IMG/VR virus record: IMGVR_UViG_3300045988_154997
Coordinates: 37,871 to 101,870 of that record
Length of the DNA: 64,000 bases
Source: a virus
Lineage: Duplodnaviria; Heunggongvirae; Uroviricota; Caudoviricetes
Reading direction: 5' to 3' (one strand)
Part shown: piece after piece, positions 242 to 58,550 of the stretch
Numbering within the stretch: the stretch's first letter is position 1
How the letters are laid out: every line of letters starts with the position of its first letter
Position numbers and translations under genes: made by a program
Notes under the pieces: model-generated
The model's database searches: none
What the model was told of the DNA's origin: nothing
The model's input: the letters and a program-made list of their open reading frames with translations, nothing else

Positions 242-628
242 ATGTCTGATAACAAGATTGAATTTATAGAAAGTCGCTACGCTGCTTTTATCGCAGGGTT
301 GATTGAATCCTCACCTATGAGCCAGGCCCAGATAGCCAAAACAATTGGGTATAAAAACGCCAACAACCTTTCTTTAATTAAAAGCGGCAAAATTCCTTTG
401 CCTATCGATAAGGTTCGTCCGCTGGCGCTGGCACTGGGTATTGAGCCAAGTCGTCTTATGATGATGGTGCTGGAAGAACGCCAACCCGAACTCGCAGCAT
501 TTTTATACAAAGAAGGCACTGCTCCTCTTAACGAGGACGAAAAACAGGTTCTTGCTGCATATAACGAGCGATTCGGTAAAGAGAAAGGCGCATCACAAAA
601 GGTTGTTGAGGCCATAAAGTCTCTATGA
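242..628 (+). CDS. XRE-family HTH regulator (putative)
   Basis: ORF track 236..628 starts at GTG; first ATG at 242. HTH-like stretch SQAQIAKTIGYKNANNLSLIKSG. Converges on and overlaps the recombinase stop by 6 nt. Confidence 0.5.
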   Translation: MSDNKIEFIESRYAAFIAGLIESSPMSQAQIAKTIGYKNANNLSLIKSGKIPLPIDKVRPLALALGIEPSRLMMMVLEERQPELAAFLYKEGTAPLNEDEKQVLAAYNERFGKEKGASQKVVEAIKSL

Positions 629-1726
629 AAAATTTACACGAATAAGCTCTGTTGATAGACGATCTCCCTTAAATTTGTGGTCAATTTCGTCTAAATCCGG
701 TTGCTCTACGATTGATGCGATGTACGTCGAGAAACTTTCTAAGGCGTCTCGCATCTCGTCCATATAATCGTGCCGGTCGTAGACCCGATCTATCCCCTCA
801 AGACTGTGGTTCATGATTTTACGTGATACCTCCTGGCTTATGCCTAATGCTGGGAAGTAACTACGCGCAGTACGGCGCAAATCTCGGGGTGTAAATGGCT
901 CAAGCTCCATCAGTTCTGGTCGTTCCAGAATACGACGTAATGCCTGGGCTATTGCCACTTTAGACATAGGAAGGTCTTTCCCGATTTTTTTATTCGAAGG
1001 CACGAGCCACTGGCTGTCTTTACCATATTCGAACAACTCTTCAATACATGTGCGCATTAATGAGCTTAAAGGCAGAGAATGCTCACGGGCAGATTTGTTC
1101 CTCTTGCCTTGATTCCAAACCCCACGCTTAAGATTGAACTCACTTTTTTTAGCCCGCAGTACTTCGTCAGGTCGTCTTGCGGATACAAGACATAGCCTGG
1201 CCGCCCATTTTGTACCAGCACACACATTGAAGTAGTCCCATATATTCCAGAACACCCATACCTCTGCGTCGGTCAGCTTCCGCTCGCGAGGTGTGGGCTT
1301 TGCGCCACCGGCAACTTTGTTAAGTGACATATCGTTTAACGGTGACACGTCGATCATCCCCTGGAAGGCGCACCAGCTGAGGAACTGCTTCATCAGAGAG
1401 AAAACGCGGCGACCCATAACAATTTTGCCATCCAGTATTAGTGGGTTGACCAGTTGGTTCACCATGAACCTATTAATATCACTTACTTTTACATCGGCAA
1501 TGTGCGGCAAAACATGTATCAAAATACAATGAACAGCGATCTCTGGCCGACGTCTTGTTATCAGCAGAGATAAGCGAGTGAATAACATGAATGCGTCCGA
1601 GAATCTCATGTCATTGCTGACCTGGGAGATCATAACGGCCTGCATTTGAGATGCTCTTTCGAGATACTCAATCGCCTCTTTTGAGGTGTTCTCCGCAGCG
1701 CGTGCTCTGTCAAAGCTATTTTTCAT
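623..1726 (-). CDS. int: tyrosine recombinase / integrase
   Basis: C-terminal catalytic signature: ARRPDEV (Arg box), PRDLRRTARSY (box II-like), MNHSLEGIDRVYDRHDY (HxxxxxxxY with catalytic Tyr). Confidence 0.75.
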   Translation of the reverse strand: MKNSFDRARAAENTSKEAIEYLERASQMQAVMISQVSNDMRFSDAFMLFTRLSLLITRRRPEIAVHCILIHVLPHIADVKVSDINRFMVNQLVNPLILDGKIVMGRRVFSLMKQFLSWCAFQGMIDVSPLNDMSLNKVAGGAKPTPRERKLTDAEVWVFWNIWDYFNVCAGTKWAARLCLVSARRPDEVLRAKKSEFNLKRGVWNQGKRNKSAREHSLPLSSLMRTCIEELFEYGKDSQWLVPSNKKIGKDLPMSKVAIAQALRRILERPELMELEPFTPRDLRRTARSYFPALGISQEVSRKIMNHSLEGIDRVYDRHDYMDEMRDALESFSTYIASIVEQPDLDEIDHKFKGDRLSTELIRVNFS

Positions 1727-1824
1727 ATGACAATCACCGAGTTACGCCGATGCACTGTATAAGTAAACAGTATATTAGGCATAGATTCTTATAGGATCAA
1801 GAGTAAAAGTAACTCATTTTCAGT

Positions 1825-1857
1825 AATGATTCCATACATAGTAGGTATGGAATCATT
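1825..1857. promoter_or_regulatory. perfect 13-bp inverted repeat AATGATTCCATAC-N7-GTATGGAATCATT, candidate operator
   Basis: Read directly in the divergent intergenic region between the recombinase (minus) and the first cargo ORF (plus). Half-site recurs at 6642-6654 and 7654-7666. Confidence 0.5.
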
Positions 1858-1946
1858 GGGGGGCGATTTTTTTGAATCTATCTTTTCGAACGGAGGGGTT
1901 GGCTTCACTTTTATCTTCATCACCTAAAAGGTAATTGATTTACTTG

Positions 1947-2924
1947 AAAATGGCTGGTTTTATAGTATTGTCATGCGATCGCTGCAACAGGATAAGAAAA
2001 ATGATAAAAGAGACACCGGAAGTCAACACGCTATCTGAGTTATTAGGGGCTACGCCTCCCAAACCTCAGCTAGTAGTGACGACTAAAGGTATTGATTTAG
2101 GTCTGGATATCTCCCTCGGAGATTGGAATAACTCTTCATTATTATCACGACCTTCAGCTTTGTTAGCAATTGAGCATGGGGAAAATTTATTTGAACTCAT
2201 GGATAAAGAGTTAGGTCTTGTTGGTATTAATGAAGAAGGAGTGATCAAGTCAAACATCATTATCGAACTAGATCCCCATAAAACAACTATGAGAATATTA
2301 GGTAAAATTGCGGAAGCACTCATTGTTGAAGAATGTGAAAAAAACGCGAAACAAAATGAAAACTGGGCATTATTAGCAAAGAGATATACCCCTTTCACAG
2401 ATAGTTTGTCTAATTATAAAGCTGTTGGGACTGGACTCAACTATACGAAAATTAACTATCCTACTAAATATCAACCTAATGATACTCAACGGGACATTGT
2501 GTGGATAGACAAACGAGACCCACTTTCTCAATTACTTATTTCTGCTCCAACGTCGAATTCAGGTATACAGGCTGGAATTCAAGTGAAGGTCAGTGCAAAT
2601 GGTCTTAACTATCTATCACCAATGGATTTTTCTAGCAGAAGATATGAGGTCCCTATTGTTTACTTTGATTTAAATAATGATTTTTTTGAAATTCAGATGA
2701 AGATAGTGAACTCAGGAATTGATTCGGTTTATGGAATGGATTATCACCGTGGTAGAAACATTTCTCCTGAAATACATGAAAAACTATGTGCATATTATAA
2801 CCTTATATACTCCATTATCATTGGTGATATGAAATTAGAGGCTCTGTTACTAAATGAAGAGGCACTGAAAGGGTATGTGACTGAGATTAAAGATAGACAA
2901 GGTAAAAGAATAATCGTGACGTGA
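1947..2924 (+). CDS. hypothetical protein (AT-rich cargo gene, no recognisable motif)
   Basis: Long ORF 1935..2924 (TTG in track); first ATG at 1947, alternative ATG at 2001 with AGGA upstream. Visibly AT-rich compared with the structural genes. Confidence 0.45.
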   Translation, partial: KMAGFIVLSCDRCNRIRKMIKETPEVNTLSELLGATPPKPQLVVTTKGIDLGLDISLGDWNNSSLLSRPSALLAIEHGENLFELMDKELGLVGINEEGVIKSNIIIELDPHKTTMRILGKIAEALIVEECEKNAKQNENWALLAKRYTPFTDSLSNYKAVGTGLNYTKINYPTKYQPNDTQRDIVWIDKRDPLSQLLISAPTSNSGIQAGIQVKVSANGLNYLSPMDFSSRRYEVPIVYFDLNNDFFEIQMKIVNSGIDSVYGMDYHRGRNISPEIHEKLCAYYNLIYSIIIGDMKLEALLLNEEALKGYVTEIKDRQGKRIIVT

Positions 2925-3086
2925 AAACCTAAACTGTAAAGGCAACAAAAGGTGAAATAATAACTCATTAAAAGCACATTGTGTGAAATTTTAATCTGAT
3001 AATTCATATATCGGAAGGGATTTTAGATATTTTTAATATTTATAACTGTCCTTTTCATAGATATAGTTGATTTGAGCGCACACTTT

Positions 3087-3107
3087 CATGTAAAAAGCCG
3101 CCTAAGC
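3087..3107. terminator. hairpin AGCCGC-CTAA-GCGGCT, T-run on minus strand
   Basis: Stem-loop followed by TTTTT when read on the minus strand, immediately downstream of the glutaredoxin stop (3117). Confidence 0.5.
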
Positions 3108-3116
3108 GGCTCTTAA

Positions 3117-3362
3117 TTATAATGTACTCACCAGAGCGGCGAATTCCGTATAGCCACCGATAGATTCGCCATTTACGAACACCTGCGGTATGGTCTCCAC
3201 CGGCTTGCCAACCAGGGCGCTCAATTTCTCTTTGTCTATCCCAGCAGACACAATATCGATGTATTCGTAATCGCCAAAACCGTGACCGTGAAGCTGCTTC
3301 GCCAGCTCGACCGCACGTTTGCAGTATGAGCAGTTATCTCGTCCATAGATAGTGATCGTCAT
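3117..3362 (-). CDS. glutaredoxin (GrxA/NrdC-like)
   Basis: 81 aa; CSYC active-site motif at the N-terminus; KPVETIPQVFVNGESIGGYTEF closely resembles E. coli Grx1 from memory. RBS GAGG 7 nt upstream. Confidence 0.85.
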   Translation of the reverse strand: MTITIYGRDNCSYCKRAVELAKQLHGHGFGDYEYIDIVSAGIDKEKLSALVGKPVETIPQVFVNGESIGGYTEFAALVSTL

Positions 3363-3502
3363 TGCTTTGCCTCGTTATGCGCTTCGCTGGGGAACGTGTA
3401 GCGGTTAGTGAAAGAGCTGAGGTGGTAGTGCTCGTGAATGTATGGATTTGACTTCTGCACCTGACGAGATGCGCGACGCGCATGTTTACATTTATTTCCC
3501 AT
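3359..3502 (-). CDS. small basic hypothetical protein (47 aa), translationally coupled to glutaredoxin
   Basis: ATG at 3502 preceded by AAGGA. Stop overlaps the glutaredoxin start as ATGA. Track ORF 3359..3577 is probably an over-extension. Confidence 0.35.
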   Translation of the reverse strand: MGNKCKHARRASRQVQKSNPYIHEHYHLSSFTNRYTFPSEAHNEAKQ

Positions 3503-3558
3503 ATTGAGTCCTTTCAAGTGAGTATCCGAAAGAACTATACAGTTAACGTGCGTAAAAA

Positions 3559-3587
3559 GTAAGTGCTTACCTATCATTTATTGATAG
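3559..3587. promoter_or_regulatory. dispersed motif copy: GTAAGtgCTTAC palindrome + CTATCA-N5-TGATAG palindrome
   Basis: Contains the 16-mer GTGCTTACCTATCATT (3563-3578), identical to 9685-9700. Sits upstream of the plus-strand ORF at 3652. Confidence 0.4.
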
Positions 3588-3651
3588 AAGAATAGCCGCC
3601 TGTCGTGTGATACTATTTACAGAACTAAACTGGCTTTCCACAAGGTGTAAA

Positions 3652-4473
3652 ATGACTATCCTTGAAAATCCTGATGCGAATGTTGAATCTGTTTATAGTC
3701 TTCATCCAACCACGTTGTTTCATTTTACAAAAAACGAAGATGCTTTCTATAGCATATTGGCTGAGAAATATTTTAAACCATTTCTTGCTCGCGAGGAAAT
3801 AAGAGGAGTCGGGGGACGCAGGAGGTTTGCAGTACCAATGGTATCGTTTTGTGACATAAAACTATCACAAATCAGAGATCATAGCGGAAAATATGGAGAA
3901 TTCGGTCTTGGGCTAACTAAGTCTTGGGCGGAAAAGAAAGGTCTACACCCAGTTCTATATATGAATAAGAGTAGTGAAATATTTTCTAAATACAATGCCA
4001 GAATTCGACTTATTAAAAATAAGTTGGTGCCGCTTTGGAAGGCTAGAGGAAATTTAGATACCAAAAACAGAATAGAGTTTGAGAAATTGAAAGCAGAATA
4101 TTCTGATCTATATAATTTACTGCGTTATATGAAAAATTACAGAGGCAAGCTAGAGCGAAAAGATAATAAAACAATAGAGAATTATATATATGCAGACGAG
4201 AAAGAGTGGCGTTATGTGCCAGCTCCTTTTATTGGTGATTTATGGCCTAGTCTGAGTTTGGAGCGTGTTATCACTTCTGATGACAAAGCAAAAATTAGCT
4301 CAAAATTTTCAAAGTTTGGCATTGATTTTGAGTTCAATGATATAAAATATATACTTATACCTAAAGAACAACATATCCAAAAGCTAATTAACTTTCTCTC
4401 AGGTTTAGATGGATTTGAATCTTCAATTATTAGCAAAATTCTGACCATGGATAAAGTAAAGCAAGATTTTTAA
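3652..4473 (+). CDS. hypothetical Abi-like protein (N-terminal LFHFT motif)
   Basis: ORF 3607..4473; first ATG in frame at 3652 (MTILENP). N-terminal LFHFTKNEDAFYSIL recalls the HFT start of AbiGi-type proteins (from memory, unverified). AT-rich. Confidence 0.45.
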   Translation: MTILENPDANVESVYSLHPTTLFHFTKNEDAFYSILAEKYFKPFLAREEIRGVGGRRRFAVPMVSFCDIKLSQIRDHSGKYGEFGLGLTKSWAEKKGLHPVLYMNKSSEIFSKYNARIRLIKNKLVPLWKARGNLDTKNRIEFEKLKAEYSDLYNLLRYMKNYRGKLERKDNKTIENYIYADEKEWRYVPAPFIGDLWPSLSLERVITSDDKAKISSKFSKFGIDFEFNDIKYILIPKEQHIQKLINFLSGLDGFESSIISKILTMDKVKQDF

Positions 4474-4499
4474 TTTTTGGTTTAACGGGAGCCTAATTA

Positions 4500-5711
4500 G
4501 TGTCAATATTTTTAAGCGAAAAGGAAATGCAAAATTGGATAATTGACAAATTATCTGATCAAGATGGATTATATAATTCAATCATCAATATTGATAAATT
4601 AAATGAATTTAATCCGAAAAGACCCGAAGAGAAAAAAATTAAGGAGAGTTATCAGTTTTGTTTAAAGAACATAACATTGTTACATTTAATGACAGATGAT
4701 GAGAATATCTCAGCAACAAAATCTGAGATATTAAGACCTGATGTCGTTGCTTATTCAACAGAGAATGAATCCTTAGTTCTTATTGAGTTAAAAAATTTTT
4801 CAACACCAACAAGGGAAGCTGGAACTGAGCTAGTGGCATATGCTGCGGAACTAAAAAGTTACTTGTCATACTTGTCTGATGGAGATATTACCAATGTACT
4901 TATATCACCTGACTGGCCACCTTTGGTTAGACACTTTATTTTTAATATGATCGTGTGGCAGAAGAAAAACTTTCTATGTTTAGAACCTTGCTATGATTTA
5001 CAAGGTAACGTATCACTTACTCCTTTAGATATTAATAAATTAGTTATTGCGGAAGAAGCACTCAAGTTCTCATTTCGTCATCTTGGCGGGTTTCATATAT
5101 GTTTGTATGATGATGAAATGTATAATCAACCGACTTCCACTTCTCGTTTACATTCGAAATTGAATGTTATTAAAGCCAGCATGGCAAAAATGTCCTCAGA
5201 CGGTGAAAAGACTAATAGCCATGGGTTTGCTATTTTATGTAGAAATTTGAACGAGAGAACTTTAGCACCATATACGATTACTCTAGTTAATGTTTCTGCG
5301 TTTTCTTCCATAGAGCGATACTTTCATTCGCCACAAATATCCAATGCTTCTCAACTCCCTAGAATAGGACAAAAAATTTATGACATTTACACTCATTACC
5401 AACCATCAGGTTTTGGGGCATCAATGTCGAAAATTTACAATTCTGGGAGGGCATATTTAGAAAAAATTAATTGCAAGCCGCGGATCGAGGTTATAGACAC
5501 CTGGGATGTATTGCAAGTACATACACATGCGCCTTATATGGAAATGGTTCATATTGAAACGTGGGGAGTTTTTAAAGAAAAATTGATTGAAGGTCTAAAT
5601 GAATGTTATGAGGATGAATATTACACACCTGATTTTAACGATGTAGATTTTTGCATGGTGTGTATTGAATCCTTAATTGACCAGAATTATGAATTTATAA
5701 AACTTTTTTGA
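4500..5711 (+). CDS. PD-(D/E)xK nuclease-like protein (putative)
   Basis: 403 aa. Motif ILRPDVVAYSTENESLVLIELK fits the PD...(D/E)xK nuclease core. GTG start at 4500 with GGGAG 9 nt upstream; 26 nt after the previous gene. AT-rich. Confidence 0.5.
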   Translation: MSIFLSEKEMQNWIIDKLSDQDGLYNSIINIDKLNEFNPKRPEEKKIKESYQFCLKNITLLHLMTDDENISATKSEILRPDVVAYSTENESLVLIELKNFSTPTREAGTELVAYAAELKSYLSYLSDGDITNVLISPDWPPLVRHFIFNMIVWQKKNFLCLEPCYDLQGNVSLTPLDINKLVIAEEALKFSFRHLGGFHICLYDDEMYNQPTSTSRLHSKLNVIKASMAKMSSDGEKTNSHGFAILCRNLNERTLAPYTITLVNVSAFSSIERYFHSPQISNASQLPRIGQKIYDIYTHYQPSGFGASMSKIYNSGRAYLEKINCKPRIEVIDTWDVLQVHTHAPYMEMVHIETWGVFKEKLIEGLNECYEDEYYTPDFNDVDFCMVCIESLIDQNYEFIKLF

Positions 5712-11284: not shown

Positions 11285-12430
11285 ATGAAATACATAAAAT
11301 CTTCATCGTTGCTGGCATTAACTTTGCTTTTTAACTCTGGATTCGTTAACGCAGACAATAAACAAACGCTGATAGAAGCCGCTACCGCAGGGGATACCGC
11401 AGCACAAAGTGAGTTAGGTACAAATTATTTTGATGGTGTCAATGGTTTTGATAAGGATGTAGTTGAGGCCAAGAAGTGGATTGATCTAGCTGCAGAAAAG
11501 GGAGATAAAGTAGCATATTATGCACTTGGAGTTATGTACACATTTGGCGAGGGTGTAGATAAAGACCTAAATAAAGCTGTTGAGTACTACAAACTTGCGG
11601 GGGATGCTCGTGAAGGTAGAGCCTACAACAATCTTGGTGCTATTTATCAAAAGGGGATGCTTGGTAAAGTAGATCATGCACTCGCCATTAAATACTTCAA
11701 ACTAGCCTCTGATGCCGGGTATGTTAAAGCAACTTCAGTTCTTGGGGCGTATTACCAATATGGTAAAGGCGTTAAAAAGAATTATAAAAAGGCTTTTACT
11801 TATTACAAAAAGGCGGCAGACCAAGGCAGTTCAGAAGCTATGATAGGATTAGGAATACTATACGATGATGGGTTAGGCGTTAAACGCAATGATGCAGAAG
11901 CAGTTAAGTGGTATAAAAAGGCAGCGGAACTTGGAAACGCCGACGCCATAACCAATCTTGGCATTATGTATGAGAATGGGGAAGGTGTAAAAAAGGACTA
12001 TAAAAAAGCAGCCGACCTTTATCAGACTGCTTGCGATAAAGGAGAAAAAAGAGGCTGCGATTACATTGCAGAACTGAAAGAAAGCGGCAAATATCGAGCG
12101 CCGGCTTCCAAAGCCAAAACAAAATCCGCCACCCAGCGACTTATTGCTAAATCCATTGATAAGGGCGTTAACGCTACATTTACCTGGCAGGGTGATGATG
12201 CTACCTTCACCGCTAATGATGGCAAAGTTGACTGCACCTTCCTGAAGGATTTTTCAGAGAAAGGAGGCAATCTGGCTACCTCGTTTGTTTGCACCGACAA
12301 CGTTCAAATCATCCTGAAGCAATTCAGAGATACCAAGAATGCCTACCTCGCGGTAATGACTGACAACTTCAACACAGAAGTTAAATCATTTTCGGTCAAT
12401 GTGTACGTGACTAATACTGGTTCAAACTAA
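11285..12430 (+). CDS. secreted Sel1-repeat (TPR-like) protein
   Basis: N-terminal signal peptide; several Sel1-type repeats (AxxGxxxAxxxLGxMYxxGxGVxKDxxKAxxWYKKAAxxG). Encoded opposite to its neighbours. Confidence 0.75.
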   Translation: MKYIKSSSLLALTLLFNSGFVNADNKQTLIEAATAGDTAAQSELGTNYFDGVNGFDKDVVEAKKWIDLAAEKGDKVAYYALGVMYTFGEGVDKDLNKAVEYYKLAGDAREGRAYNNLGAIYQKGMLGKVDHALAIKYFKLASDAGYVKATSVLGAYYQYGKGVKKNYKKAFTYYKKAADQGSSEAMIGLGILYDDGLGVKRNDAEAVKWYKKAAELGNADAITNLGIMYENGEGVKKDYKKAADLYQTACDKGEKRGCDYIAELKESGKYRAPASKAKTKSATQRLIAKSIDKGVNATFTWQGDDATFTANDGKVDCTFLKDFSEKGGNLATSFVCTDNVQIILKQFRDTKNAYLAVMTDNFNTEVKSFSVNVYVTNTGSN

Positions 12431-15044: not shown

Positions 15045-15075
15045 AAACAAATTGTTTTCTAGTATTAGTTAATTA
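15045..15075. promoter_or_regulatory. conserved promoter/operator element (AACAAATTGTTTTCT...TTAATTAG)
   Basis: One of 8 copies of AACAAnTTGTTTTCT, here ~20 nt upstream of the helicase start. Confidence 0.45.
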
Positions 15076-15818
15076 GATAGGGGATCAATAAACCGCCGTG
15101 CTTCTTCCAGTTCTTCTGGAAAGTGGGCGGAAATAAGGCGCTCTGGAACGATTTCCATTAGCCAGATAGCAGAGAAAATTGCGCGTATGCGCTTGCTGCG
15201 GGGGATGATGCGCAAACGCTCCAGAATCCACTCAAAATAGCTTTCCTGAATCGGGTTGAACTGCATGTCTCCCATATGCTTAAAGCTAACCAGAGAGTCA
15301 TCCAGACGGGTTGTTGCGCGTCTGGATAATTTCTCTTCGAATATCTCAATCAGTTCTGGCTGCCATAAATGCTGTGGGCGCGGCAACTTGTCCCACAGAC
15401 GCCGTGCAGCTGCGGAAAGAACCGTGGAGATAAAGTAGTCGTATGAACAGCAATAGCGATCAGCAAACTGGCGTGCTTTCCATAGCGACGTTTTATTGGC
15501 AGTCGACAACTCCTGATAAGGCAGGCGTTTTAACCCGGTGGTGAACGGAGCTGTTTCAAAGTGTTCGCGACCGTGCGTCAGCATGATATTTGAGTACTGA
15601 CGTTTGTATGCCTCCGTAAAAAGACAGGTGGCCATGAGAGGATGCATGTCGCGGTAATCAAACCACTTCGTCTCGAAGAGTTCAGCCTCGTCATTGCAGC
15701 GCGACAAACCAATGTTTTCAGCGACCCACTTGTCCATAACAGCGGTATTCCACTCTGTCATGAAGTCGTACTGGTCGTTGTCAATGGTATCAAAAAAGAT
15801 TTGGCTCATGTGGCTCAC
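15069..15818 (-). CDS. hypothetical protein
   Basis: 249 aa ORF directly upstream of the helicase; no motif recognised. Confidence 0.45.
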   Translation of the reverse strand: MSHMSQIFFDTIDNDQYDFMTEWNTAVMDKWVAENIGLSRCNDEAELFETKWFDYRDMHPLMATCLFTEAYKRQYSNIMLTHGREHFETAPFTTGLKRLPYQELSTANKTSLWKARQFADRYCCSYDYFISTVLSAAARRLWDKLPRPQHLWQPELIEIFEEKLSRRATTRLDDSLVSFKHMGDMQFNPIQESYFEWILERLRIIPRSKRIRAIFSAIWLMEIVPERLISAHFPEELEEARRFIDPLSN

Positions 15819-15927: not shown

Positions 15928-15985
15928 ACCTGCTTCCGTATAAATAATAATAAGTAACTTAGTATTTATATACAGAAGCAGGTTC
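15928..15985. repeat. ~58-bp palindromic element (CCTGCTTCCGTATA...AT-rich core...TATACAGAAGCAGG)
   Basis: 14-bp GC-containing arms around an AT-rich core with TAAGTAACTTAGTA; a paralogous element sits at 49989-50045. Confidence 0.5.
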
Positions 15986-16006
15986 CAAATTCAACCAGCA
16001 GGATGC

Positions 16007-17203
16007 TTAAACATCTTTTAGAAAGCCTGGAAACCAATGTTTCATGATATACCTAAAATGTGCTCTAGTTGGTTCAAAAACCTGTCTAGATACCAGCGCT
16101 CCATCAGGATGATTCTGAACAGACTGTTCTTTTTCCATATCGTAAAAATTATGAGTTATCTCTGGGGGGAAGAAAATATTTCTGTCCAGTGGCACTGTCG
16201 CAAAAGGATTGTAGTAAATATGAAGGCCGTCAAAGTGCGTCTCTTCATGAGCAGTGGAATGGCAAACTACAATATCCGCACCAGTGACTTCGTTATTTAA
16301 AAAATGCCGATATGTAGTGATGAAATGATCAGGACCTATCCTTTGTGTGTGCTTTCCCTCGTTTTTCATCCCTTCATTGGCGATGAAATCATTCACATCA
16401 ATGGCTCGATATCGTGTTGACCTTACATATCTACCGATACCGCTTTGAACCACGGCTTTTCCAAAAGTGCCGGTGGTGGAGAAAATAACCGCACTTATTT
16501 CTTTATATGAGTCGTTAGTAAATATACCTAATGGAATTTCAACGTCTTCATTCTTTTTGATTGAGGTAACTTTAGTTTGGCTGCCAGTCACCAAATTTCT
16601 GGTGGTAGGTTCCTCAATGCCAAACAACACTCGATTGATGATTGTGTTATTTTGAGACAATGATAAATCGGAGTCAAAGGGTGCAAGCGCCAGAACAAAC
16701 GGCTTATTAACTACATGAGACATCGTAGAGTACGGGAATTTTTTGCCATTAACTCCTGTAAAAAGATCATGTTTGTCTTTGATTTTTCCGATTAATTTTA
16801 GCGTTGATTGATGTTTGAATTTTGATTCGCTAAAAAGAGCACCTGCAGGTGGATTATGTGGCCGATCTGATATCACAGCTTCGACGTTAAACTGGTAGCC
16901 TGACGGTGTAGTAACACAGAAATCGGGACTGTCTTTTGTGTAGTCGACAGAATAATCGAGACGAATAAACATTTCGTTCAGATACAATTCCCATAAGGCG
17001 GAATTGAAGGTTGTCTGAAACTCTTTAACGAATTTAGTCTGCTCACCGCTACGCTCCAGTAACCCACGCCCCCACGACTGTATCACTTCTCTTACTGGAG
17101 CATATGTATTATCTTGATAAATCTGTTTAAAAGATTCGTGCAGCTTGTTTTTTGCTATTTTGGTTGAGAACAAATCCATTATTAGCCTCACTAACCAGTT
17201 CAA
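16007..17203 (-). CDS. hypothetical protein (398 aa), partner of the DUF2971-like gene
   Basis: Long ORF, moderately AT-rich, no motif recognised; immediately downstream of the DUF2971-like gene on the same strand. Confidence 0.45.
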   Translation of the reverse strand: MNWLVRLIMDLFSTKIAKNKLHESFKQIYQDNTYAPVREVIQSWGRGLLERSGEQTKFVKEFQTTFNSALWELYLNEMFIRLDYSVDYTKDSPDFCVTTPSGYQFNVEAVISDRPHNPPAGALFSESKFKHQSTLKLIGKIKDKHDLFTGVNGKKFPYSTMSHVVNKPFVLALAPFDSDLSLSQNNTIINRVLFGIEEPTTRNLVTGSQTKVTSIKKNEDVEIPLGIFTNDSYKEISAVIFSTTGTFGKAVVQSGIGRYVRSTRYRAIDVNDFIANEGMKNEGKHTQRIGPDHFITTYRHFLNNEVTGADIVVCHSTAHEETHFDGLHIYYNPFATVPLDRNIFFPPEITHNFYDMEKEQSVQNHPDGALVSRQVFEPTRAHFRYIMKHWFPGFLKDV

Positions 17204-17245
17204 TAAGAAAAGCGCCCAACATAATCATTTGAGGAAAGTCTGGAG

Positions 17246-17965
17246 CTACTTCAGCTTTTCTTTGACAAGAAGATAACCATCATCAGGTGTACTCATTTTG
17301 TAAACCTCGATGCTCGTGTCTAGCTGTGTCCGGGCATATTCTTCTACTTCAGGAGAAACGTTATACCCAAGAATGATCTCTCTAATATATTTCTTATCAA
17401 ATGCCTGAGCGCCTATTTTTTTAGTAATAACCCTTTGTTCTTCCTCATATTTCCAGCATTCGTGCTTGTAGAAAAAGAGCTTATCAAAAAGTACCTTAAA
17501 CTCATCTGTAACTTCATCGAACACGGGAACAGAAGGTATATATTTCACATTATCAAAGCTGTGATACCCCTCAATAGAGGTAACAAAATCATCATCAAAG
17601 CCTATGCAGAAACCTTTATGCGACACTGAGTAATGTGACCACATCAAGATGTTATCTTCGTTTGGTGACAAGCACACCACACCAAAAGCCCCTAATGATT
17701 CTTTCCGCAAATCCACAGCCAACGATTTTGCAGCTTCAGGAGCTACAGCATCCCAGTCTTCAAAGGAAAAATCCTTACATCCATTGTCTTCAAAGTGTTT
17801 CCGGCGCTCCACTTCTGTACCTCCCATCGTTATCGAAACTTTGAACTCTGATGGGTCGTTGAATGAAGAAGGTGCGCTAGCAGAGATAGTGCCGTCCTCT
17901 ACAAACCGTTTGAGGTTACGTAACACTTTTTGCGAATCTTCACTTCCAATATATTTGTAGAGCAT
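17246..17965 (-). CDS. DUF2971-like protein
   Basis: First ATG gives MLYKYIGSED...SSFNDPSEF...NILMWSHYSVSHKGFCIGFD; the LYKY / FNDP / MWSHY pattern matches my recollection of DUF2971. Track start 18004 is TTG. Confidence 0.45.
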   Translation of the reverse strand: MLYKYIGSEDSQKVLRNLKRFVEDGTISASAPSSFNDPSEFKVSITMGGTEVERRKHFEDNGCKDFSFEDWDAVAPEAAKSLAVDLRKESLGAFGVVCLSPNEDNILMWSHYSVSHKGFCIGFDDDFVTSIEGYHSFDNVKYIPSVPVFDEVTDEFKVLFDKLFFYKHECWKYEEEQRVITKKIGAQAFDKKYIREIILGYNVSPEVEEYARTQLDTSIEVYKMSTPDDGYLLVKEKLK

Positions 17966-18009
17966 TAGGGAACCTATAGAAAGAGGTGCCAAGCAGCACC
18001 TCAATAAAA

Positions 18010-18369
18010 TTAACCTTTCTTCATCAACTCGCGTTTGATTTCATCGGTACGCATCGTGACGTCGGCAGCAGTGATCGCCTCGTTAAGTTTCACGATATCC
18101 TCGATTTCCTGCGGCGACTTCTCTGCCAGATGGAAAATAGCAGCACGAATCACATCAGAGCGGGTGAATTTCTCGAAGCGAGGGATGAACTTCATCATCT
18201 CCAGCAGTTCGAAGTATTCGTCTTCCAGTGACATTGTGCGGCTTTTAATTTTCTCTTTGCCACGAGTCGGGCGTCCCTGTGGTCTGACTGGTTGGCGCAA
18301 AGGAGTTGTGTTCTTAGCCGGTGCATCAGGCTCTTTGCGCTTTGCTAGGTCACCCATTTTCATGGACAT
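18010..18369 (-). CDS. small partition partner protein (ParG/ParB-like, putative)
   Basis: 119 aa, basic N-terminus then helical C-terminus; directly downstream of ParA with a 1-nt overlap, as in type Ib partition operons. Confidence 0.45.
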   Translation of the reverse strand: MSMKMGDLAKRKEPDAPAKNTTPLRQPVRPQGRPTRGKEKIKSRTMSLEDEYFELLEMMKFIPRFEKFTRSDVIRAAIFHLAEKSPQEIEDIVKLNEAITAADVTMRTDEIKRELMKKG

Positions 18370-19037
18370 TATTCTTCTTCCTCCAGACTCAACAGATAAT
18401 CTACAAATTCTTCAAACTCGGCTTCCGCCTTTTTGTCGCGCTCGCTACCGGTCATTTCAAAGATAGAACGACCAGACTCTTCCGCATCATCGTAGACGTT
18501 GCGGTTATATAGATTGACAGGCGCAGACTCGATGCCAAACGTCTCGACAATCTCTTTAGCCGCCAGAATGCGAGACACTTGTGATGGCAAAGCCGGGCAC
18601 TGGTTCATGACCGCGCGGACCTTCACTTTATCGTTTACATTGCGAACATTGTCGATAATAGGATCGATGTCACGTAAAGATTTCAAATCACGACGCTTAG
18701 GACGCAGCGGGATAATGATAACGTCAGCCATCAGCATCGCTTGTCGCTGAATTTCGGAGTCGAAGCCACCAGCATCTACCACTACATACTCAGCTCTACC
18801 CTGAAGCGATTTTAGGTGCTTAATGATGTCATCCTGAACGTATGCAAAAGGAATCAGCTCAAGGTCTTCGTTCTGTCGACGGTCTTCACACCAGCTCGTT
18901 GTCGTGCGCTGAATATCTATATCGGTGATATAAACCTTCTTCTTCTTTTTGACTTTCAGGCAAACGGCAATTTGCTGGGCAACGGTGGATTTGCCAGGCC
19001 CGCCCTTTGTGCCGCCAACCACAAAGATCTTGGTCAT
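18369..19037 (-). CDS. parA: ParA-family partition ATPase
   Basis: Deviant Walker A GGTKGGPGKST at the N-terminus, ~220 aa, acidic C-terminal tail. Confidence 0.8.
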   Translation of the reverse strand: MTKIFVVGGTKGGPGKSTVAQQIAVCLKVKKKKKVYITDIDIQRTTTSWCEDRRQNEDLELIPFAYVQDDIIKHLKSLQGRAEYVVVDAGGFDSEIQRQAMLMADVIIIPLRPKRRDLKSLRDIDPIIDNVRNVNDKVKVRAVMNQCPALPSQVSRILAAKEIVETFGIESAPVNLYNRNVYDDAEESGRSIFEMTGSERDKKAEAEFEEFVDYLLSLEEEE

Positions 19038-19199: not shown

Positions 19200-19976
19200 T
19201 TAGTGGTTGGTAGACCTGGCATCAAATGTTGTAACGCCCACTTCAATGTGGCGGTCTTCTTTGGAGATGATGGTGAGAATCTGACTAGATGGGTCTATGC
19301 TGACAGCCATAGGGTTCCAGTGACGTAACTGAGCCTCGCTGTTCAATAGCAGCGCATCCCACGGTTTGACGCCATTCTGCCCAATACCACCTTCAACAAG
19401 GACATCTATAAATTCTTTATTTAAATTGTCATAGATTTGGACACGCCCGACCAGAAGCATACCGACCGCCCAAATTCTGGCACCGTAAACCGTCTGATGG
19501 TCATCACATACCACATGGTCATGCCAATTGAGAAGGAAATTGTAAACTCTTCTAGCAAGTCCCTTTTGTTCCTTTGAAGGGGTTACAAATGCCCCTTTGA
19601 TCTGGACACCAAGGTGAGAGCCTTTTTGTGAGCGAAACTGGAAACGTTTGTAGACGAACCTGGCAATCTGAATGCCGTCATCATCTTCTTGTTCATCACC
19701 AACTAACTCACGAACACTATGAACTATCTCTGCTTCTGAATACCCCTGCTCGTCAAGATCCATTGCATGTTCTTGAAGCCAATCTGCATCAGGGTCGCCT
19801 ACAAATGATACTGTCAAACAGTAATCATAATTAGATCCCGTCAAGGACCATTCTGTGAGCCGTAAAACAGAAAAATCAGAGTTAACCATGTAGCCAACTC
19901 TGATTTTCTCTCTTGCTTCACATTCAGGGAAATCAGACAGAACTTTTGAATACTCTGCTATGAATGATGGTGACAT
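19200..19976 (-). CDS. hypothetical protein
   Basis: 258 aa ORF with an acidic stretch EQEDDDG; no motif recognised. Confidence 0.45.
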   Translation of the reverse strand: MSPSFIAEYSKVLSDFPECEAREKIRVGYMVNSDFSVLRLTEWSLTGSNYDYCLTVSFVGDPDADWLQEHAMDLDEQGYSEAEIVHSVRELVGDEQEDDDGIQIARFVYKRFQFRSQKGSHLGVQIKGAFVTPSKEQKGLARRVYNFLLNWHDHVVCDDHQTVYGARIWAVGMLLVGRVQIYDNLNKEFIDVLVEGGIGQNGVKPWDALLLNSEAQLRHWNPMAVSIDPSSQILTIISKEDRHIEVGVTTFDARSTNH

Positions 19977-20375
19977 TTAGTTCGCAAGCCGCATATCCGT
20001 AGATGAATCCAGTTTCGCTATTTTAACATCTACGCGGTATTTATCTTTGATAAATTTAGCTATTTTGCTTTCAATCTCATAGAAAGCATCCTGTTCACAA
20101 CGCACAACATCGGGAAACTGTTTTTCTGGCTTAACAAGAAAACGTAACCGATTGTTGAGCACCATCATTTCTGCAAACAATTTGATGGTAAACTTGCCTT
20201 CTTCAACGTCACTTTTAAGGTTAACGATGAAACGCTGATCCTTAAGCATACCCGGTTTGTTCATTTCACGAATTTGGAGCGAGTCATTCCAATGCCGCAA
20301 CGGAACCGATGCGATCATCTTGGTACAGTCTCTTATCGTCTGAATAGAACGAGATGCGTTAAGTGCAGTATGCAT
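19977..20375 (-). CDS. hypothetical protein
   Basis: 132 aa ORF abutting the previous gene. Confidence 0.45.
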   Translation of the reverse strand: MHTALNASRSIQTIRDCTKMIASVPLRHWNDSLQIREMNKPGMLKDQRFIVNLKSDVEEGKFTIKLFAEMMVLNNRLRFLVKPEKQFPDVVRCEQDAFYEIESKIAKFIKDKYRVDVKIAKLDSSTDMRLAN

Positions 20376-55190: not shown

Positions 55191-55655
55191 ATGAAGTCTC
55201 CCATACTGTTCACTTTCTGTTCTAAAACTATCATGAAATACTCGCTTCTCCCTCTACTAACGTTACCAGTGTTGATGCTTACCGCGTGCCAATCACGCCC
55301 AATATCAATCCATGACGCCAAACCAGCACCGCAGGCCAAAGTGTTCAAGTATCAAAGCGCAGCGCCAGCTACGTTGGTGGTAATGAGAGACACAGGTTTT
55401 GTAGGAGCTGGATGTGATGCTTCCATTTTCATCAACGGCGAAACTGTCGCAAAACTGGCTACAGGCGAAAAAGCGACTTTCCATTTAAATGCCGGAGAAT
55501 TAATTGTGGGTGCATCTCTTGAAGGTGCAGGTTTATGTGCTCTAAACCCCGCTCGTCAAGAGCGAGAAACGACTCTGAAGAATGGAGACACAAAAGCGTT
55601 CAGGGTGTTCACCAGCAATTCTGGTGACATCGACATTCTGCCAACAACTCTGTGA
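55191..55655 (+). CDS. lipoprotein (hypothetical)
   Basis: Signal peptide with lipobox LLTLPVLMLTAC. Confidence 0.5.
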   Translation: MKSPILFTFCSKTIMKYSLLPLLTLPVLMLTACQSRPISIHDAKPAPQAKVFKYQSAAPATLVVMRDTGFVGAGCDASIFINGETVAKLATGEKATFHLNAGELIVGASLEGAGLCALNPARQERETTLKNGDTKAFRVFTSNSGDIDILPTTL

Positions 55656-55659
55656 TGAC

Positions 55660-56184
55660 ATGACAACCAAAGATATTACCTACGGTATCCAAGCTGAACT
55701 CTGGCCGCGAGATTACACTAACGTTGAAAAACTACTGATGTTCTGGCGCAGAGAACAAATTCCTGTAAGGGTCACTCTCGAAGATGGCCAGGCGTTTTGC
55801 ATGTACGTTTATGGCCTCATGCCATCTCGTAACAAAGTTGACCTTTGCCCAGCCCCTTTTGACAAAGAAAATCGTATAAGGCTCCCACTTGAACGCATTA
55901 GTACAATTGAATCAGGTGTGGTTGACAGTATCGCTCACGATTTCAAAGGTCGACTAACAGTTCACCCTGATTATGTCGATAATCGGCCATCACGCCGCGA
56001 TTTTTTTGCAATTTGCAACCAAGCCTACAAAGCAAACAAATCTATAAGGGTGTACATGGCGGATGGCCGTGAAATTGAGGGGGTGTCAGCAGGCGCAGAT
56101 GCTTGTCAGGTTACACTACGTGTCGAGAACGGTAGAAAAATAGTTGTTTTGTTCGATTGGGTTGAACGAATTTTGCCTTTTTGA
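55660..56184 (+). CDS. hypothetical protein
   Basis: Track ORF 55582..56184; in-frame ATG at 55660 (MTTKD) lies just after the upstream stop. Confidence 0.45.
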   Translation: MTTKDITYGIQAELWPRDYTNVEKLLMFWRREQIPVRVTLEDGQAFCMYVYGLMPSRNKVDLCPAPFDKENRIRLPLERISTIESGVVDSIAHDFKGRLTVHPDYVDNRPSRRDFFAICNQAYKANKSIRVYMADGREIEGVSAGADACQVTLRVENGRKIVVLFDWVERILPF

Positions 56185-56187
56185 GTT

Positions 56188-56496
56188 ATGAAATCGATAT
56201 TGTTACCACCATTATTTTTACTTTGCTCAGTTGCGGCAAATGCAATGGACTATAAGCCTGTCATTCAGTCGCTGATGAATGACGTGTGCTCAACGTCTCA
56301 GAATGTATCAGTTTGCATGTATCAATTTTCGGCAGCCGTAAAAGCAGGAAAAGCGATAGGTGAGAATGTGGAACTGTGTAAGAAAGTGGCAAATGAAGAA
56401 CGGGCAATGTTGGATTGCGAATCTAGCGAGTCATCGGCACAGTTCGTTGATGCGCTATTTGACACCAATCGTAAGGCTGTAGATTCTGTTCAATAA
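56188..56496 (+). CDS. secreted hypothetical protein
   Basis: N-terminal signal peptide MKSILLPPLFLLCSVAANA; several Cys. Confidence 0.45.
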   Translation: MKSILLPPLFLLCSVAANAMDYKPVIQSLMNDVCSTSQNVSVCMYQFSAAVKAGKAIGENVELCKKVANEERAMLDCESSESSAQFVDALFDTNRKAVDSVQ

Positions 56497-56508
56497 ATCT
56501 ATAAGGTT

Positions 56509-56540
56509 AATAACCGGCTAAGTCCGGTTATTATTTTTCA
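56509..56540 (+). terminator. rho-independent terminator (AATAACCGG-CTAAGT-CCGGTTATT + T-run)
   Basis: Hairpin followed by ATTTTT, 13 nt after the stop at 56496. Confidence 0.6.
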
Positions 56541-56779
56541 CATCACTTCTTTATATCTACAAATCAAATAACCTAAATATATATAAGGTCTAAAGCCGCA
56601 ATCGATTATTTATTTAGGGAACACCTTCGACGATCTCGCTTTTATTTCTAGGACTTTCATCCCTGCAAAAAATTTAAAAAAAACACTTGCAATCTTTTTT
56701 CGCATATCGATAATTGAACTCGTCGAAAGCGAAGACGCTAACGACAATAAATTTTAAATTTACATAAGGAAAAATTATC

Positions 56780-57430
56780 ATGGCTAACATTATCATTTCT
56801 AAAAAATCCATCATTGAAGCTGCTTCCATTGTATCCGATGAACTGCGCGAAAAAGCAGATCTGGCAACTCAAACATATAACGAACATTATAAAAATGGTA
56901 CGCACACTAAAGCAGACAAAGCAAATATGCAAGCTGCGACCACTAAACTTGCTTACTTCATCAACAACGTCGTAAACGCAGTAGAAGACGAAAAATTATG
57001 CTCTGTTTTCTACTATGCGATTAAAGCAAGCAAACAAGCGCCAGAAGTATTTTTCCGTGATGCAATGACTAATAGTTATTCTCTGGAAAAACTGGTTTAT
57101 CTGGTTAAATCAATTAAATCTGGTAAATGCGTTTATTCCATCGCTGATATGTCTGGATCTCGTGTATTCGCTTTAATCGATATGATTAACGACGAGATCG
57201 ACACGTTCACTAATGGCGCTGTTTTCGATTTAATGAATGAAGCTAAAAAAGCGTGTGAAATTAAATTGGACGCTGGTTATACTCAAGCCAACCAGTTGAT
57301 CAATCTTTGCGAACGTCTTGGACTTGTTGAAAAAGTCAAAGGAGCTGGGAGCGCGAAAGCTGGTACTCAGCAATATCGCTTCATTAAAAATGATTTCTAC
57401 AATTATTTAGCTGATGCTTTCAAAGCGTAA
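56780..57430 (+). CDS. hypothetical protein (AT-rich cassette gene 1)
   Basis: 216 aa ORF with AAGGAAAAA upstream; visibly AT-rich. Confidence 0.5.
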   Translation: MANIIISKKSIIEAASIVSDELREKADLATQTYNEHYKNGTHTKADKANMQAATTKLAYFINNVVNAVEDEKLCSVFYYAIKASKQAPEVFFRDAMTNSYSLEKLVYLVKSIKSGKCVYSIADMSGSRVFALIDMINDEIDTFTNGAVFDLMNEAKKACEIKLDAGYTQANQLINLCERLGLVEKVKGAGSAKAGTQQYRFIKNDFYNYLADAFKA

Positions 57431-57442
57431 TTAATGGAATCA

Positions 57443-57463
57443 AGCGCCCACTATGGGCGCTTT
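57443..57463 (+). terminator. hairpin AGCGCCCA-CTAT-GGGCGCT (weak T-run), duplicate of the 57940-57960 hairpin
   Basis: Identical 21-mer at 57940-57960; sits between gene 1 and gene 2 of the cassette. Confidence 0.4.
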
Positions 57464-57478
57464 AAAGGAGCTTTGAAA

Positions 57479-57682: not shown

Positions 57683-57702
57683 TTTTTTTAAGGAGCTTAA
57701 TC

Positions 57703-57933: not shown

Positions 57934-57937
57934 AATC

Positions 57938-57966
57938 GAGCGCCCACTATGGGCGCTTTTTTCGTT
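57938..57966 (+). terminator. rho-independent terminator (GAGCGCCCA-CTAT-GGGCGC + TTTTTT)
   Basis: Strong hairpin with a 6-T run, 5 nt after the stop at 57933. Confidence 0.7.
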
Positions 57967-58420: not shown

Positions 58421-58423
58421 GCA

Positions 58424-58541: not shown

Positions 58542-58550
58542 TCTTCTCAG

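What the first reader, a model, noticed from the sequence alone, without database searches (positions are those of the whole stretch)
16007..17965. DUF2971-like gene plus 398-aa partner between the replication and partition genes
The 17246-17965 protein starts MLYKYIGSED and carries FNDPSEF and MWSHY motifs that match my recollection of DUF2971, a family of unknown function. It is followed on the same strand by a 398-aa protein with no recognisable domain. Both are AT-richer than their neighbours and sit between the helicase/primase genes and parA, a non-obvious place for a two-gene accessory module.
Basis: partly seen in the sequence, partly recalled or inferred. Interest (0 to 1): 0.6.

Follow-up and report, generated by a model that had tools for sequence, protein, structure and literature searches.

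The report
Two anti-phage genes in phage-plasmid hotspot
The two genes are a swappable cargo cassette in an SSU5-like phage-plasmid of E. coli: a predicted ADP-ribosyltransferase-like defence gene (DUF2971) followed by a member of the PD-T7-5 anti-phage nuclease family. It is a real accessory module but built from known kinds of parts.

Summary

The window is an SSU5-like phage-plasmid, 100% identical to E. coli pEc2-51408 over the 8.5 kb compared. The cargo lies between the small gene after parA and a conserved gene upstream of the helicase.

The "no domain" partner is not unknown. It matches PD-T7-5 full length (E 1.5e-139), a family whose founding 390-aa gene was experimentally validated on its own. 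Its model has an N-terminal PD-(D/E)xK nuclease fold. The DUF2971 protein matches the PADLOC candidate PDC-S31 and folds like DarT-type ADP-ribosyltransferases.

In 74 related viral contigs the same slot is empty or holds PD-T4-3-like, KAP NTPase, DUF2971 alone, PD-T7-5 alone or unknown genes. It is a defence hotspot, not a replication accessory.

Each gene also occurs alone, so two stacked single-gene systems is my best reading (0.68). A coupled ART-plus-nuclease system is not excluded (about 0.2). PD-T7-5 in these elements has already been reported.

The parts
15986..18008 (.). Variable cargo (2,023 bp) of the par-rep hotspot. It holds both genes and is GC 0.401.
   Evidence: Conserved flanks end at 18009-18014 and resume at about 15983-15985 when compared with relatives that have empty or differently filled slots. 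The cargo is 99.2% identical in Citrobacter pCAV1741-110, whose flanking genes are only 76-90% identical.
17246..17965 (-). DUF2971 / PDC-S31 gene, 239 aa. Predicted ADP-ribosyltransferase-like fold of the DarT/Tpt1/AbiGi-related kind.
16007..17179 (-). PD-T7-5-family gene, 390 aa (398 aa if read from TTG 17203). N-terminal PD-(D/E)xK nuclease fold plus a beta-rich C-terminal domain of unknown role.
17180..17245 (-). 66-bp intergenic spacer with a GAGG ribosome-binding site (17186-17189) 6 nt before ATG 17179. No minus-strand terminator lies between the genes.
   Evidence: Sequence read. The terminator scan finds no minus-strand terminator here. Homology to solitary PD-T7-5 genes in other elements starts at about 17192-17200.
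17983..18002 (-). Terminator-like hairpin directly after the stop of the 119-aa par-associated gene and 18 nt before the DUF2971 ATG.
   Evidence: One search reports 8 pairs, 5 of them G-C. Hairpins of different sequence occupy the same place in other cargo types.
15928..15983 (-). Conserved long hairpin at the other cargo boundary, 24 nt after the PD-T7-5 stop. Probably a terminator. It belongs to the backbone.
   Evidence: RNA fold -27.6 kcal/mol, z -4.45, with none of 200 shuffles as stable. It is present in relatives with empty and differently filled slots, seen as self-complementary blast hits.
18010..19037 (-). Conserved left flank: parA (18369-19037) and a 119-aa downstream gene (18010-18369). 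A ParB/ParG-like role for the small gene is inferred from position only.
   Evidence: ParA-type Pfam hits. The flank is conserved across relatives.
15069..15818 (-). Conserved right flank: phrog_2500 gene of unknown function, upstream of the DnaB-like helicase and primase.
   Evidence: phrog_2500 E 2.9e-112. It served as the anchor for 80 related viral loci.

Best explanation
The region is a 2-kb cargo cassette in a recombination-exchanged defence hotspot of an SSU5-like phage-plasmid. The hotspot lies between the partition operon and the replication genes. The cassette stacks two single-gene anti-phage systems that can each work alone.

(1) DUF2971/PDC-S31 protein. It has an ADP-ribosyltransferase-like fold. 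By inference, it uses NAD+ to ADP-ribosylate a nucleic acid or an essential host or phage factor once infection is sensed. That would stall transcription or replication in an abortive-infection manner, as reported for the lactococcal DUF2971 system Aristaios.

(2) PD-T7-5-family protein. By inference, its N-terminal PD-(D/E)xK nuclease domain (E64, D86, E100, with lysine from K128 or K136) cuts phage DNA. The beta-rich C-terminal domain would supply target recognition or activation.

Both genes protect the lysogen, and so the phage-plasmid, from competing phages.

Shown here: family membership, the predicted folds, the hotspot, exchange of the cassette as a unit, and solitary occurrence of each gene. 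Inferred: the enzymatic activities, the triggers and the anti-phage phenotype of this allele.
For: Identity:
- PD-T7-5 HMM E 1.5e-139 and PDC-S31 E 2.6e-38; DUF2971 above Pfam's cut-off.

Hotspot:
- In 74 related IMG/VR loci the slot measures 192-2,210 bp.
- It is empty in 5 loci. Elsewhere it holds a PD-T4-3-like GIY-YIG gene, a KAP NTPase (PDC-S49), DUF2971 alone in either orientation, PD-T7-5 alone, membrane-protein pairs or an unknown 357-374-aa gene.
- Annotated relatives agree: Cyrano has DUF2971 only, SSU5 has DUF2971 plus three unknown genes, and CP027358 has the KAP NTPase.

Mobility: the cargo is 99.2% identical in a Citrobacter plasmid whose flanks are 76-90% identical.

Independence:
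- The validated PD-T7-5 was one 390-aa CDS cloned with 143 bp of upstream sequence (PMC9519451 Table S2).
- A 76%-identical E. coli homologue stands alone in a P4-like integrase island.
- Across 110 loci with PD-T7-5 relatives there is no shared neighbour. None of 79 genome loci has DUF2971 within 8 kb.
- Phage-plasmids with PD-T7-5 alone keep only the first 4 or so and last 12 or so codons of a DUF2971 ORF. DUF2971 was therefore deleted while the nuclease gene stayed intact.
- A 51%-identical DUF2971 gene sits alone between the tail-fibre assembly and sheath genes of P2-like prophages. Of 80 viral DUF2971 loci, only one, the window's own type, has PD-T7-5.

Literature:
- DefenseFinder already found PD-T7-5 and PD-T4-3 in SSU5 clade J phage-plasmids (bioRxiv 10.1101/2025.09.12.675607).
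- Aristaios is a single-gene DUF2971 Abi system (PMC11381338).
- DUF2971 was classed as an ART family related to DarT and AbiGi (PMC12522546).
Against: - No experiment bears on this allele. It is about 76% identical to the E. coli chromosomal PD-T7-5 homologue I examined, and I could not tell which variant was the validated one.
- PDC-S31 is only a candidate family. Aristaios is a distant relative whose sequence I could not compare.
- The two genes are 66 bp apart with no terminator between them. They move together and recur as a pair in three diverged versions (100/100, 80/73 and 76/54% identity). This also fits a coupled system.
- Close PD-T7-5 homologues in Proteus and Yersinia prophages follow an AbiGi-family ART-like gene in the same arrangement.
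Confidence: 0.68

Rival explanations
1. The two genes form one coupled two-gene system with an AbiG-like architecture. An ART-like protein (DUF2971 here, AbiGi elsewhere) would sense infection or regulate a roughly 400-aa nuclease effector that sits downstream. Alternatively the two would act in sequence, for example ADP-ribosylation marking a target that the nuclease then cuts.
For: - The genes share a strand, lie 66 bp apart with an RBS and no intervening terminator, and there is no clear separate promoter.
- The pair recurs in three diverged versions in phage-plasmid-derived DNA and is exchanged as a unit.
- PD-T7-5 homologues 76-77% identical to this one in Proteus terrae and Yersinia enterocolitica prophages are preceded, 66-86 bp upstream on the same strand, by an AbiGi-family gene (Pfam E about 1e-49).
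- The same window holds a second pair of this kind: AbiGi (3607-4473) followed by a 403-aa protein with a canonical PD...ExK motif.
- Lactococcal AbiG is a two-gene system. From my own recollection, its AbiGi and AbiGii proteins are about 249 and 397 aa.
Against: - Each part exists and persists alone. PD-T7-5 was validated as a single gene and is solitary in E. coli islands and 110 diverse loci.
- DUF2971 was deleted next to an intact nuclease gene.
- DUF2971 is alone in most phage-plasmid slots and in P2-like prophages.
- The 403-aa family is also solitary elsewhere.
- There is no sequence relation to AbiGii in PADLOC or Pfam, and no relation between the two nuclease families.
- Adjacency is expected for independent systems that accumulate in one hotspot.
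Confidence: 0.2
2. The pair is a plasmid-maintenance device: a toxin-antitoxin addiction module, or an accessory of replication or partition, placed next to par and rep for that reason.
For: - The cassette lies between the partition and replication genes.
- ART-fold toxins such as DarT, and nucleases, are common TA toxins (established knowledge).
- Pfam labels AbiGi an 'antitoxin'.
Against: - The slot is empty in 5 related elements and filled with unrelated genes in most others, so nothing in it is needed for maintenance.
- The exact pair is in 11 of 722 plasmids matching the surrounding region.
- Either gene can be present without the other, which argues against toxin/antitoxin dependence.
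- There is no macrodomain or other known antitoxin.
Confidence: 0.06
3. The genes serve the phage side of the element's life cycle: host takeover or counter-defence, for example an ART that modifies host proteins as the T4 Alt/Mod enzymes do, and a nuclease that degrades host or rival DNA during lytic growth.
For: - The element is a phage (tail fibre and lysis genes nearby).
- Phage-encoded ARTs that modify host proteins are known (established knowledge).
- DUF2971 occurs in tailed-phage genomes.
Against: - The PD-T7-5 family was selected experimentally as a host-protective function from a bacterial genome library.
- Homologues lie in prophage moron slots and integrase islands typical of defence cargo.
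- The other occupants of the slot are defence-type genes.
Confidence: 0.05

Closest known systems
PD-T7-5 (Vassallo et al. 2022, single-gene E. coli anti-T7 system; PADLOC PDLC04110)
   Same: Full-length HMM match at E 1.5e-139. Same length, 390 aa, as the validated CDS. Same nuclease annotation, and a PD-(D/E)xK fold is found here. It is carried on mobile elements.
   Different: This allele is about 76% identical to the E. coli chromosomal homologue I examined. It sits directly behind a DUF2971 gene in a phage-plasmid. I could not establish its identity to the exact validated protein, and its activity is untested.
PDC-S31 (PADLOC candidate) and Aristaios (lactococcal DUF2971 single-gene Abi system)
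   Same: DUF2971 domain and PDC-S31 HMM hit at E 2.6e-38. ADP-ribosyltransferase-like predicted fold, as reported for Aristaios. Single-gene occurrence on plasmids and prophages.
   Different: Aristaios is 316 aa and comes from Lactococcus. I could not make a sequence comparison. PDC-S31 has no experimental validation that I could find: no paper in the library mentions it.
DarT of DarTG (ssDNA thymidine ADP-ribosyltransferase toxin)
   Different: There is no DarG macrodomain antitoxin next to it and no sequence-level DarT match. Sequence identity in the structural alignments is 9-15%. Large helical inserts are present.
AbiG (AbiGi + AbiGii) of Lactococcus
   Same: Two adjacent same-strand genes of about 240 and 390 aa. 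The first belongs to an ART-like family related to AbiGi. Close PD-T7-5 homologues follow true AbiGi genes in Proteus and Yersinia.
   Different: The DUF2971 protein does not hit the AbiGi models, and the 390-aa protein does not hit AbiGii. [quoted passage not shown] The protein here is PD-(D/E)xK.
Defence hotspots of temperate phages and satellites (P2/P4-type hotspots) and defence cargo of SSU5-group phage-plasmids
   Same: A fixed position between conserved genes, with many alternative defence cargos, empty sites and low GC. PD-T7-5 and PD-T4-3 were already listed for SSU5 clade J elements.
   Different: The papers I read did not describe this particular slot, between the par operon and the phrog_2500/helicase genes. 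I did not search for it specifically.

Membership tests
DUF2971 (Pfam PF11185) | Profile match at or above Pfam's gathering score | tested here: met
   30.2 bits against a cut-off of 22, E 1.2e-6, residues 108-179 covering positions 1-89 of the 89-position profile.
DUF2971 (Pfam PF11185) | ART-like core with conserved Tyr (motif II) and ExE (motif III), as described in PMC12522546 | tested here: met
PDC-S31 (PADLOC candidate single-gene system) | Match to the PDC-S31 HMMs | tested here: met
   PDLC04990 E 2.6e-38, residues 2-234 against positions 9-254 of 259. Three further PDC-S31 models also hit.
PDC-S31 (PADLOC candidate single-gene system) | Anti-phage activity | not testable with these tools
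   This needs a plaque assay. No paper in the library mentions PDC-S31.
PD-T7-5 | Full-length match to the PD-T7-5 HMM | tested here: met
   PDLC04110 E 1.5e-139, 462.9 bits, covering positions 1-342 of 346. The E. coli island homologue scores the same.
PD-T7-5 | Single-gene system, able to stand alone | tested here: met
   The validated clone held one CDS plus 143 bp upstream. Relatives are solitary in 110 loci. The gene stays intact beside a deleted DUF2971.
PD-T7-5 | PD-(D/E)xK nuclease core with catalytic acidic residues and lysine | tested here: inconclusive
PD-T7-5 | Protection against T7 | not testable with these tools
   Needs an experiment.
AbiG (AbiGi + AbiGii) | First gene matches the AbiGi profile | tested here: not met
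   There is no AbiGi hit for 17246-17965 in PADLOC or Pfam. True AbiGi genes elsewhere hit strongly.
AbiG (AbiGi + AbiGii) | Second gene matches AbiGii | tested here: not met
   There is no AbiGii hit in PADLOC at E up to 0.1, nor in Pfam for 41 family members at E up to 1.
DarTG toxin-antitoxin | DarT toxin paired with a macrodomain DarG antitoxin | tested here: not met
   The neighbours are the par-associated gene and the PD-T7-5 nuclease, with no macrodomain. Similarity to DarT is structural only.
Defence hotspot of a mobile element | Conserved flanks, many alternative cargos including known defence genes, and empty sites | tested here: met
   74 loci show slot lengths of 192-2,210 bp and at least 8 cargo types, 4 of which hit PADLOC models.

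The most novel reading that the evidence does not exclude
ART-like proteins of the DUF2971/AbiGi group and roughly 400-aa PD-(D/E)xK nucleases form a recurrent coupled two-gene defence architecture, a nuclease-effector counterpart of lactococcal AbiG. The ART-like partner would be exchangeable (DUF2971 in phage-plasmids, AbiGi in Proteus and Yersinia prophages and in the window's second island) and would widen or gate the nuclease's activity. The nuclease would keep a basal stand-alone function.
Probability: 0.15. Interest if true: 0.6.

Novelty: new member of a known kind. Interest (0 to 1): 0.3.

Why it matters
The finding turns two "hypothetical" genes into a defined defence cassette. It also maps a cargo hotspot in SSU5-like phage-plasmids, which are common in clinical E. 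coli, Shigella, Salmonella and Klebsiella.

The hotspot is a useful place to look for new defence genes. Examples are the unannotated 357-374-aa gene and the membrane-protein pairs that fill the same slot.

The repeated ART-like plus nuclease adjacency gives a cheap, testable question about whether such neighbours cooperate. In itself the finding is ordinary: known families, and PD-T7-5 carriage already reported for these elements.

Tried and rejected
- Replication or partition accessory. Rejected because the slot is empty or differently filled in most relatives.
- AbiG membership. Rejected because neither protein hits the AbiGi or AbiGii models.
- Obligate pairing with DUF2971. Tested on 79 genome loci and 27 viral loci of PD-T7-5 relatives. 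DUF2971 appears only in phage-plasmid-derived DNA.
- An apparently independent context, L093/L094 next to a CbtA toxin. It carries remnants of the par-associated gene and of phrog_2500 on both sides. It is therefore a transplanted phage-plasmid fragment, not independent evidence.
- Homology between the PD-T7-5-like protein and the window's other 403-aa nuclease-like protein. BLASTP and hhalign were not significant.
- Sequence search of the three families against PDB. Nothing useful came back.
- Promoter scan. No more sites than in shuffled sequence, so it does not settle operon structure.
- Foldseek against afdb50. The library was unavailable.
- Identifying which 90% cluster holds the validated protein RRM82777.1. 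The accession was not among those listed.
Full report
**1. What is there**

The region holds two minus-strand genes.

- Gene 17246-17965 encodes 239 aa (MLYKYIGSED..., with FNDPSEF and MWSHY). It matches Pfam DUF2971 above the gathering score (30.2 against 22 bits, E 1.2e-6), phrog_1762 and the PADLOC candidate family PDC-S31 (E 2.6e-38).
- The second ORF can be read from TTG 17203 (398 aa). ATG 17179 (390 aa) is the likely start. It has a GAGG ribosome-binding site 6 nt upstream, RefSeq annotates that start in the identical plasmid, and homologues begin MDLFS.
- Pfam finds nothing in the second protein or in 40 relatives. PADLOC places it full length in PD-T7-5 (E 1.5e-139, positions 1-342 of 346), with a weaker match to PD-T7-1.
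- The AT-richness is real. The 2,023-bp cargo has GC 0.401, against 0.456 for the window and 0.477-0.494 for the flanking genes.

**2. The element**

The surrounding 8.5 kb is 100% identical to E. coli plasmid pEc2-51408 (112.6 kb, non-mobilizable). It is 82-97% identical to the phages SSU5, Cyrano and PhiR41_1. With its tail-fibre and lysis genes, the window is an SSU5-like phage-plasmid.

On the minus strand the gene order is:
- parA (18369-19037)
- a 119-aa conserved gene (18010-18369)
- a terminator-like hairpin (17983-18002)
- DUF2971
- PD-T7-5-like
- a strong conserved hairpin (15928-15983; -27.6 kcal/mol, z -4.45)
- phrog_2500 (15069-15818)
- a DnaB-like helicase
- primase

**3. The slot is a cargo hotspot**

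Annotated relatives differ exactly here. Cyrano has a DUF2971 gene only, SSU5 has DUF2971 plus three unknown genes, and CP027358 has a 564-aa KAP-family NTPase.

I anchored on the phrog_2500 protein and recovered 80 IMG/VR loci. In the 74 that hold both anchors, the slot measures 192 to 2,210 bp. The cargo types are:
- empty, about 200 bp, in 5 loci
- a PD-T4-3-like GIY-YIG gene on the opposite strand, the commonest type
- an unannotated 357-374-aa gene on the opposite strand
- a KAP NTPase matching PDC-S49
- DUF2971/PDC-S31 alone, in either orientation
- membrane-protein pairs
- PD-T7-5 alone
- DUF2971 plus PD-T7-5, in one locus, the window's own type

Conserved flanks end at the stop of the 119-aa gene (18009-18014) and resume at the hairpin (about 15983-15985).

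The exact cassette is in 11 of 722 plasmids that match the surrounding region. It is in 13 of 5,426 complete E. coli genomes, always on plasmids.

In Citrobacter freundii pCAV1741-110 the cargo is 99.2% identical while the flanking genes are 76-90% identical. The cassette has therefore been swapped as a unit by recombination in the flanks.

**4. What the proteins are**

DUF2971 protein:
- The model is confident (pLDDT 91.9).
- Invariant residues in 48 homologues include Y142, Y173 and E174, with E176 nearly invariant. This fits the Tyr and ExE motifs described for DUF2971 as an ART family close to DarT and AbiGi (PMC12522546).
- A lactococcal DUF2971 protein, Aristaios, is an experimentally shown single-gene abortive-infection system that affects phage transcription.

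390-aa protein:
- E64, D86 (in PDF) and E100 are invariant. The canonical lysine is missing (E-A-V), and K128 or K136 on the next helix are candidates.
- The beta-rich C-terminal half has no informative match.
- Vassallo et al. list PD-T7-5 as "Nuclease". It was one CDS of 1,174 bp (390 aa) from E. coli UMB0934, cloned with 143 bp upstream and 119 bp downstream.
- A review lists PD-T7-5 among PD-(D/E)xK systems.

**5. One system or two?**

Evidence for independence:
- The founding PD-T7-5 worked as a single gene.
- A 76%-identical E. coli homologue stands alone in a P4-like integrase island.
- In 110 loci with relatives, no neighbour family is shared by more than 7 loci. None of 79 genome loci has a DUF2971 gene within 8 kb.
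- Phage-plasmids with PD-T7-5 alone still carry the first 4 or so and last 12 or so codons of a DUF2971 ORF between the par hairpin and the nuclease RBS. DUF2971 was deleted there and the nuclease gene survived intact.
- DUF2971 genes are alone in most slots. Of 80 viral DUF2971 loci, only the window's own type has PD-T7-5.
- A 51%-identical DUF2971 gene sits alone between the tail-fibre assembly and sheath genes of P2-like prophages. From my own knowledge, this is a classic moron/defence position.

Evidence for coupling:
- The genes are 66 bp apart with no terminator between them. Homology to solitary PD-T7-5 genes starts only 13-21 bp before the ATG. The nuclease gene here may therefore depend on upstream transcription.
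- The pair recurs in three diverged versions: 100/100, 80/73 and 76/54% identity. All three are phage-plasmid-derived. The L093 contig next to a CbtA toxin carries backbone remnants on both sides.
- In Proteus terrae and Yersinia enterocolitica prophages, 76-77%-identical PD-T7-5 genes directly follow an AbiGi-family gene on the same strand.
- The window itself has a second such pair. It lies in the window's most AT-rich island, next to an integrase. AbiGi (3607-4473) is followed by a 403-aa protein with a canonical P-D...E-x-K motif and a weak HSDR_N match.
- That 403-aa family is also solitary elsewhere. It is not detectably related to PD-T7-5.

I read this as two stand-alone systems stacked in a hotspot (0.68). 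A coupled ART-plus-nuclease architecture is a live minority view (0.2).

**6. Comparison with the known**

- The 390-aa protein is a member of PD-T7-5 by profile, length and fold.
- The 239-aa protein is a member of DUF2971/PDC-S31.
- Neither belongs to AbiG: there are no AbiGi or AbiGii hits.
- Neither belongs to DarTG: there is no macrodomain partner.
- A 2025 preprint already reports PD-T7-5 and PD-T4-3 in SSU5 clade J phage-plasmids of E. coli and Shigella.

New here, as far as the papers I read go, are four things: the mapping of the slot between par and rep as the hotspot, the cargo catalogue, the identification of the DUF2971 neighbour as an ART-like defence candidate, and the recurrent ART-like/nuclease adjacency.

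**7. Verdict**

It is a new member of known kinds, of modest interest (0.3). The enzymatic activities, triggers and anti-phage phenotype of this allele are inferred, not shown.

Noticed in passing
window 623-5711: The window's most AT-rich island (GC down to 0.34) holds a phage integrase (623-1726, minus strand). It also holds a second ART-like plus nuclease-like pair on the plus strand. The first gene is an AbiGi-family gene, 3607-4473 (PADLOC AbiGi E 5e-47). A 403-aa ORF, 4500-5711, follows 26 bp later. It matches phrog_30092, has a canonical P-D...E-x-K motif and a weak HSDR_N_2 hit at E 0.008, and has no PADLOC hit. The 403-aa family is solitary in P2/186-like prophages, an ICE and chromosomes.
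   Followed up: partly
L085 5187-7176; L086-L088 5249-7182; L096, L098: In Proteus terrae and Yersinia enterocolitica prophages, PD-T7-5 homologues 76-77% identical to the window's protein directly follow an AbiGi-family gene (Pfam E about 1e-49) on the same strand, 66-86 bp upstream. A true AbiGi is thus paired with a PD-(D/E)xK nuclease instead of AbiGii.
   Followed up: partly
L256 5425-5620 (same contig as L097): Phage-plasmids with PD-T7-5 alone keep the start (ATG CTC GAC AAT) and the last 12 or so codons of a DUF2971 ORF. This is the scar of an internal deletion of DUF2971 beside an intact nuclease gene.
   Followed up: yes
L211 5665-6735 (-); L266, L270; L271 5692-6816 (-): A 357-374-aa protein with no Pfam or PADLOC hit is one of the commonest occupants of the same hotspot, on the opposite strand. 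It occurs alone or convergent with a DUF2971 gene. It is a candidate for an undescribed defence gene.
   Followed up: no
L251 5773-6414 and L281 6292-6813; L276 3370-4134: Pairs of small predicted membrane proteins (214 or 255 aa, plus 136-174 aa) fill the same hotspot in other relatives, sometimes together with DUF2971. They have no family hits apart from a weak, sub-threshold Mit_KHE1 match for the 255-aa protein.
   Followed up: no
L093 1543-3930; L094: An 80%/73%-identical copy of the pair lies next to a CbtA-toxin gene cluster. It is flanked by short remnants of the par-associated gene (33 aa) and of phrog_2500 (31 aa). A piece of a phage-plasmid appears to have been transplanted into another element.
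   Followed up: partly
window 55582-56184: In another AT-rich stretch (55400-58600), a 200-aa ORF matches Pfam Flag1_repress (repressor of phase-1 flagellin, FljA-like) at E 2.5e-84. This is an unexpected cargo for a phage-plasmid.
   Followed up: no
window 11285-12430: A plus-strand Sel1-repeat protein (381 aa with a signal-like N-terminus, GC 0.42) is inserted against the direction of the replication genes. It is absent or replaced in Cyrano and SSU5, so this is another variable locus.
   Followed up: no
window 19200-20375 compared with L002 7167-8001: The two genes beyond parA (phrog_3307 and phrog_2594) are replaced in phage Cyrano by a KacT-type acetyltransferase toxin-antitoxin pair. The far side of parA is therefore variable too.
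   Followed up: no
L282-L286 5001-5726: A DUF2971 gene 51% identical to the window's sits alone between the tail-fibre assembly and tail-sheath genes of P2-like prophages in many E. coli assemblies. The index lists it in 138 blocks of the collection.
   Followed up: partly
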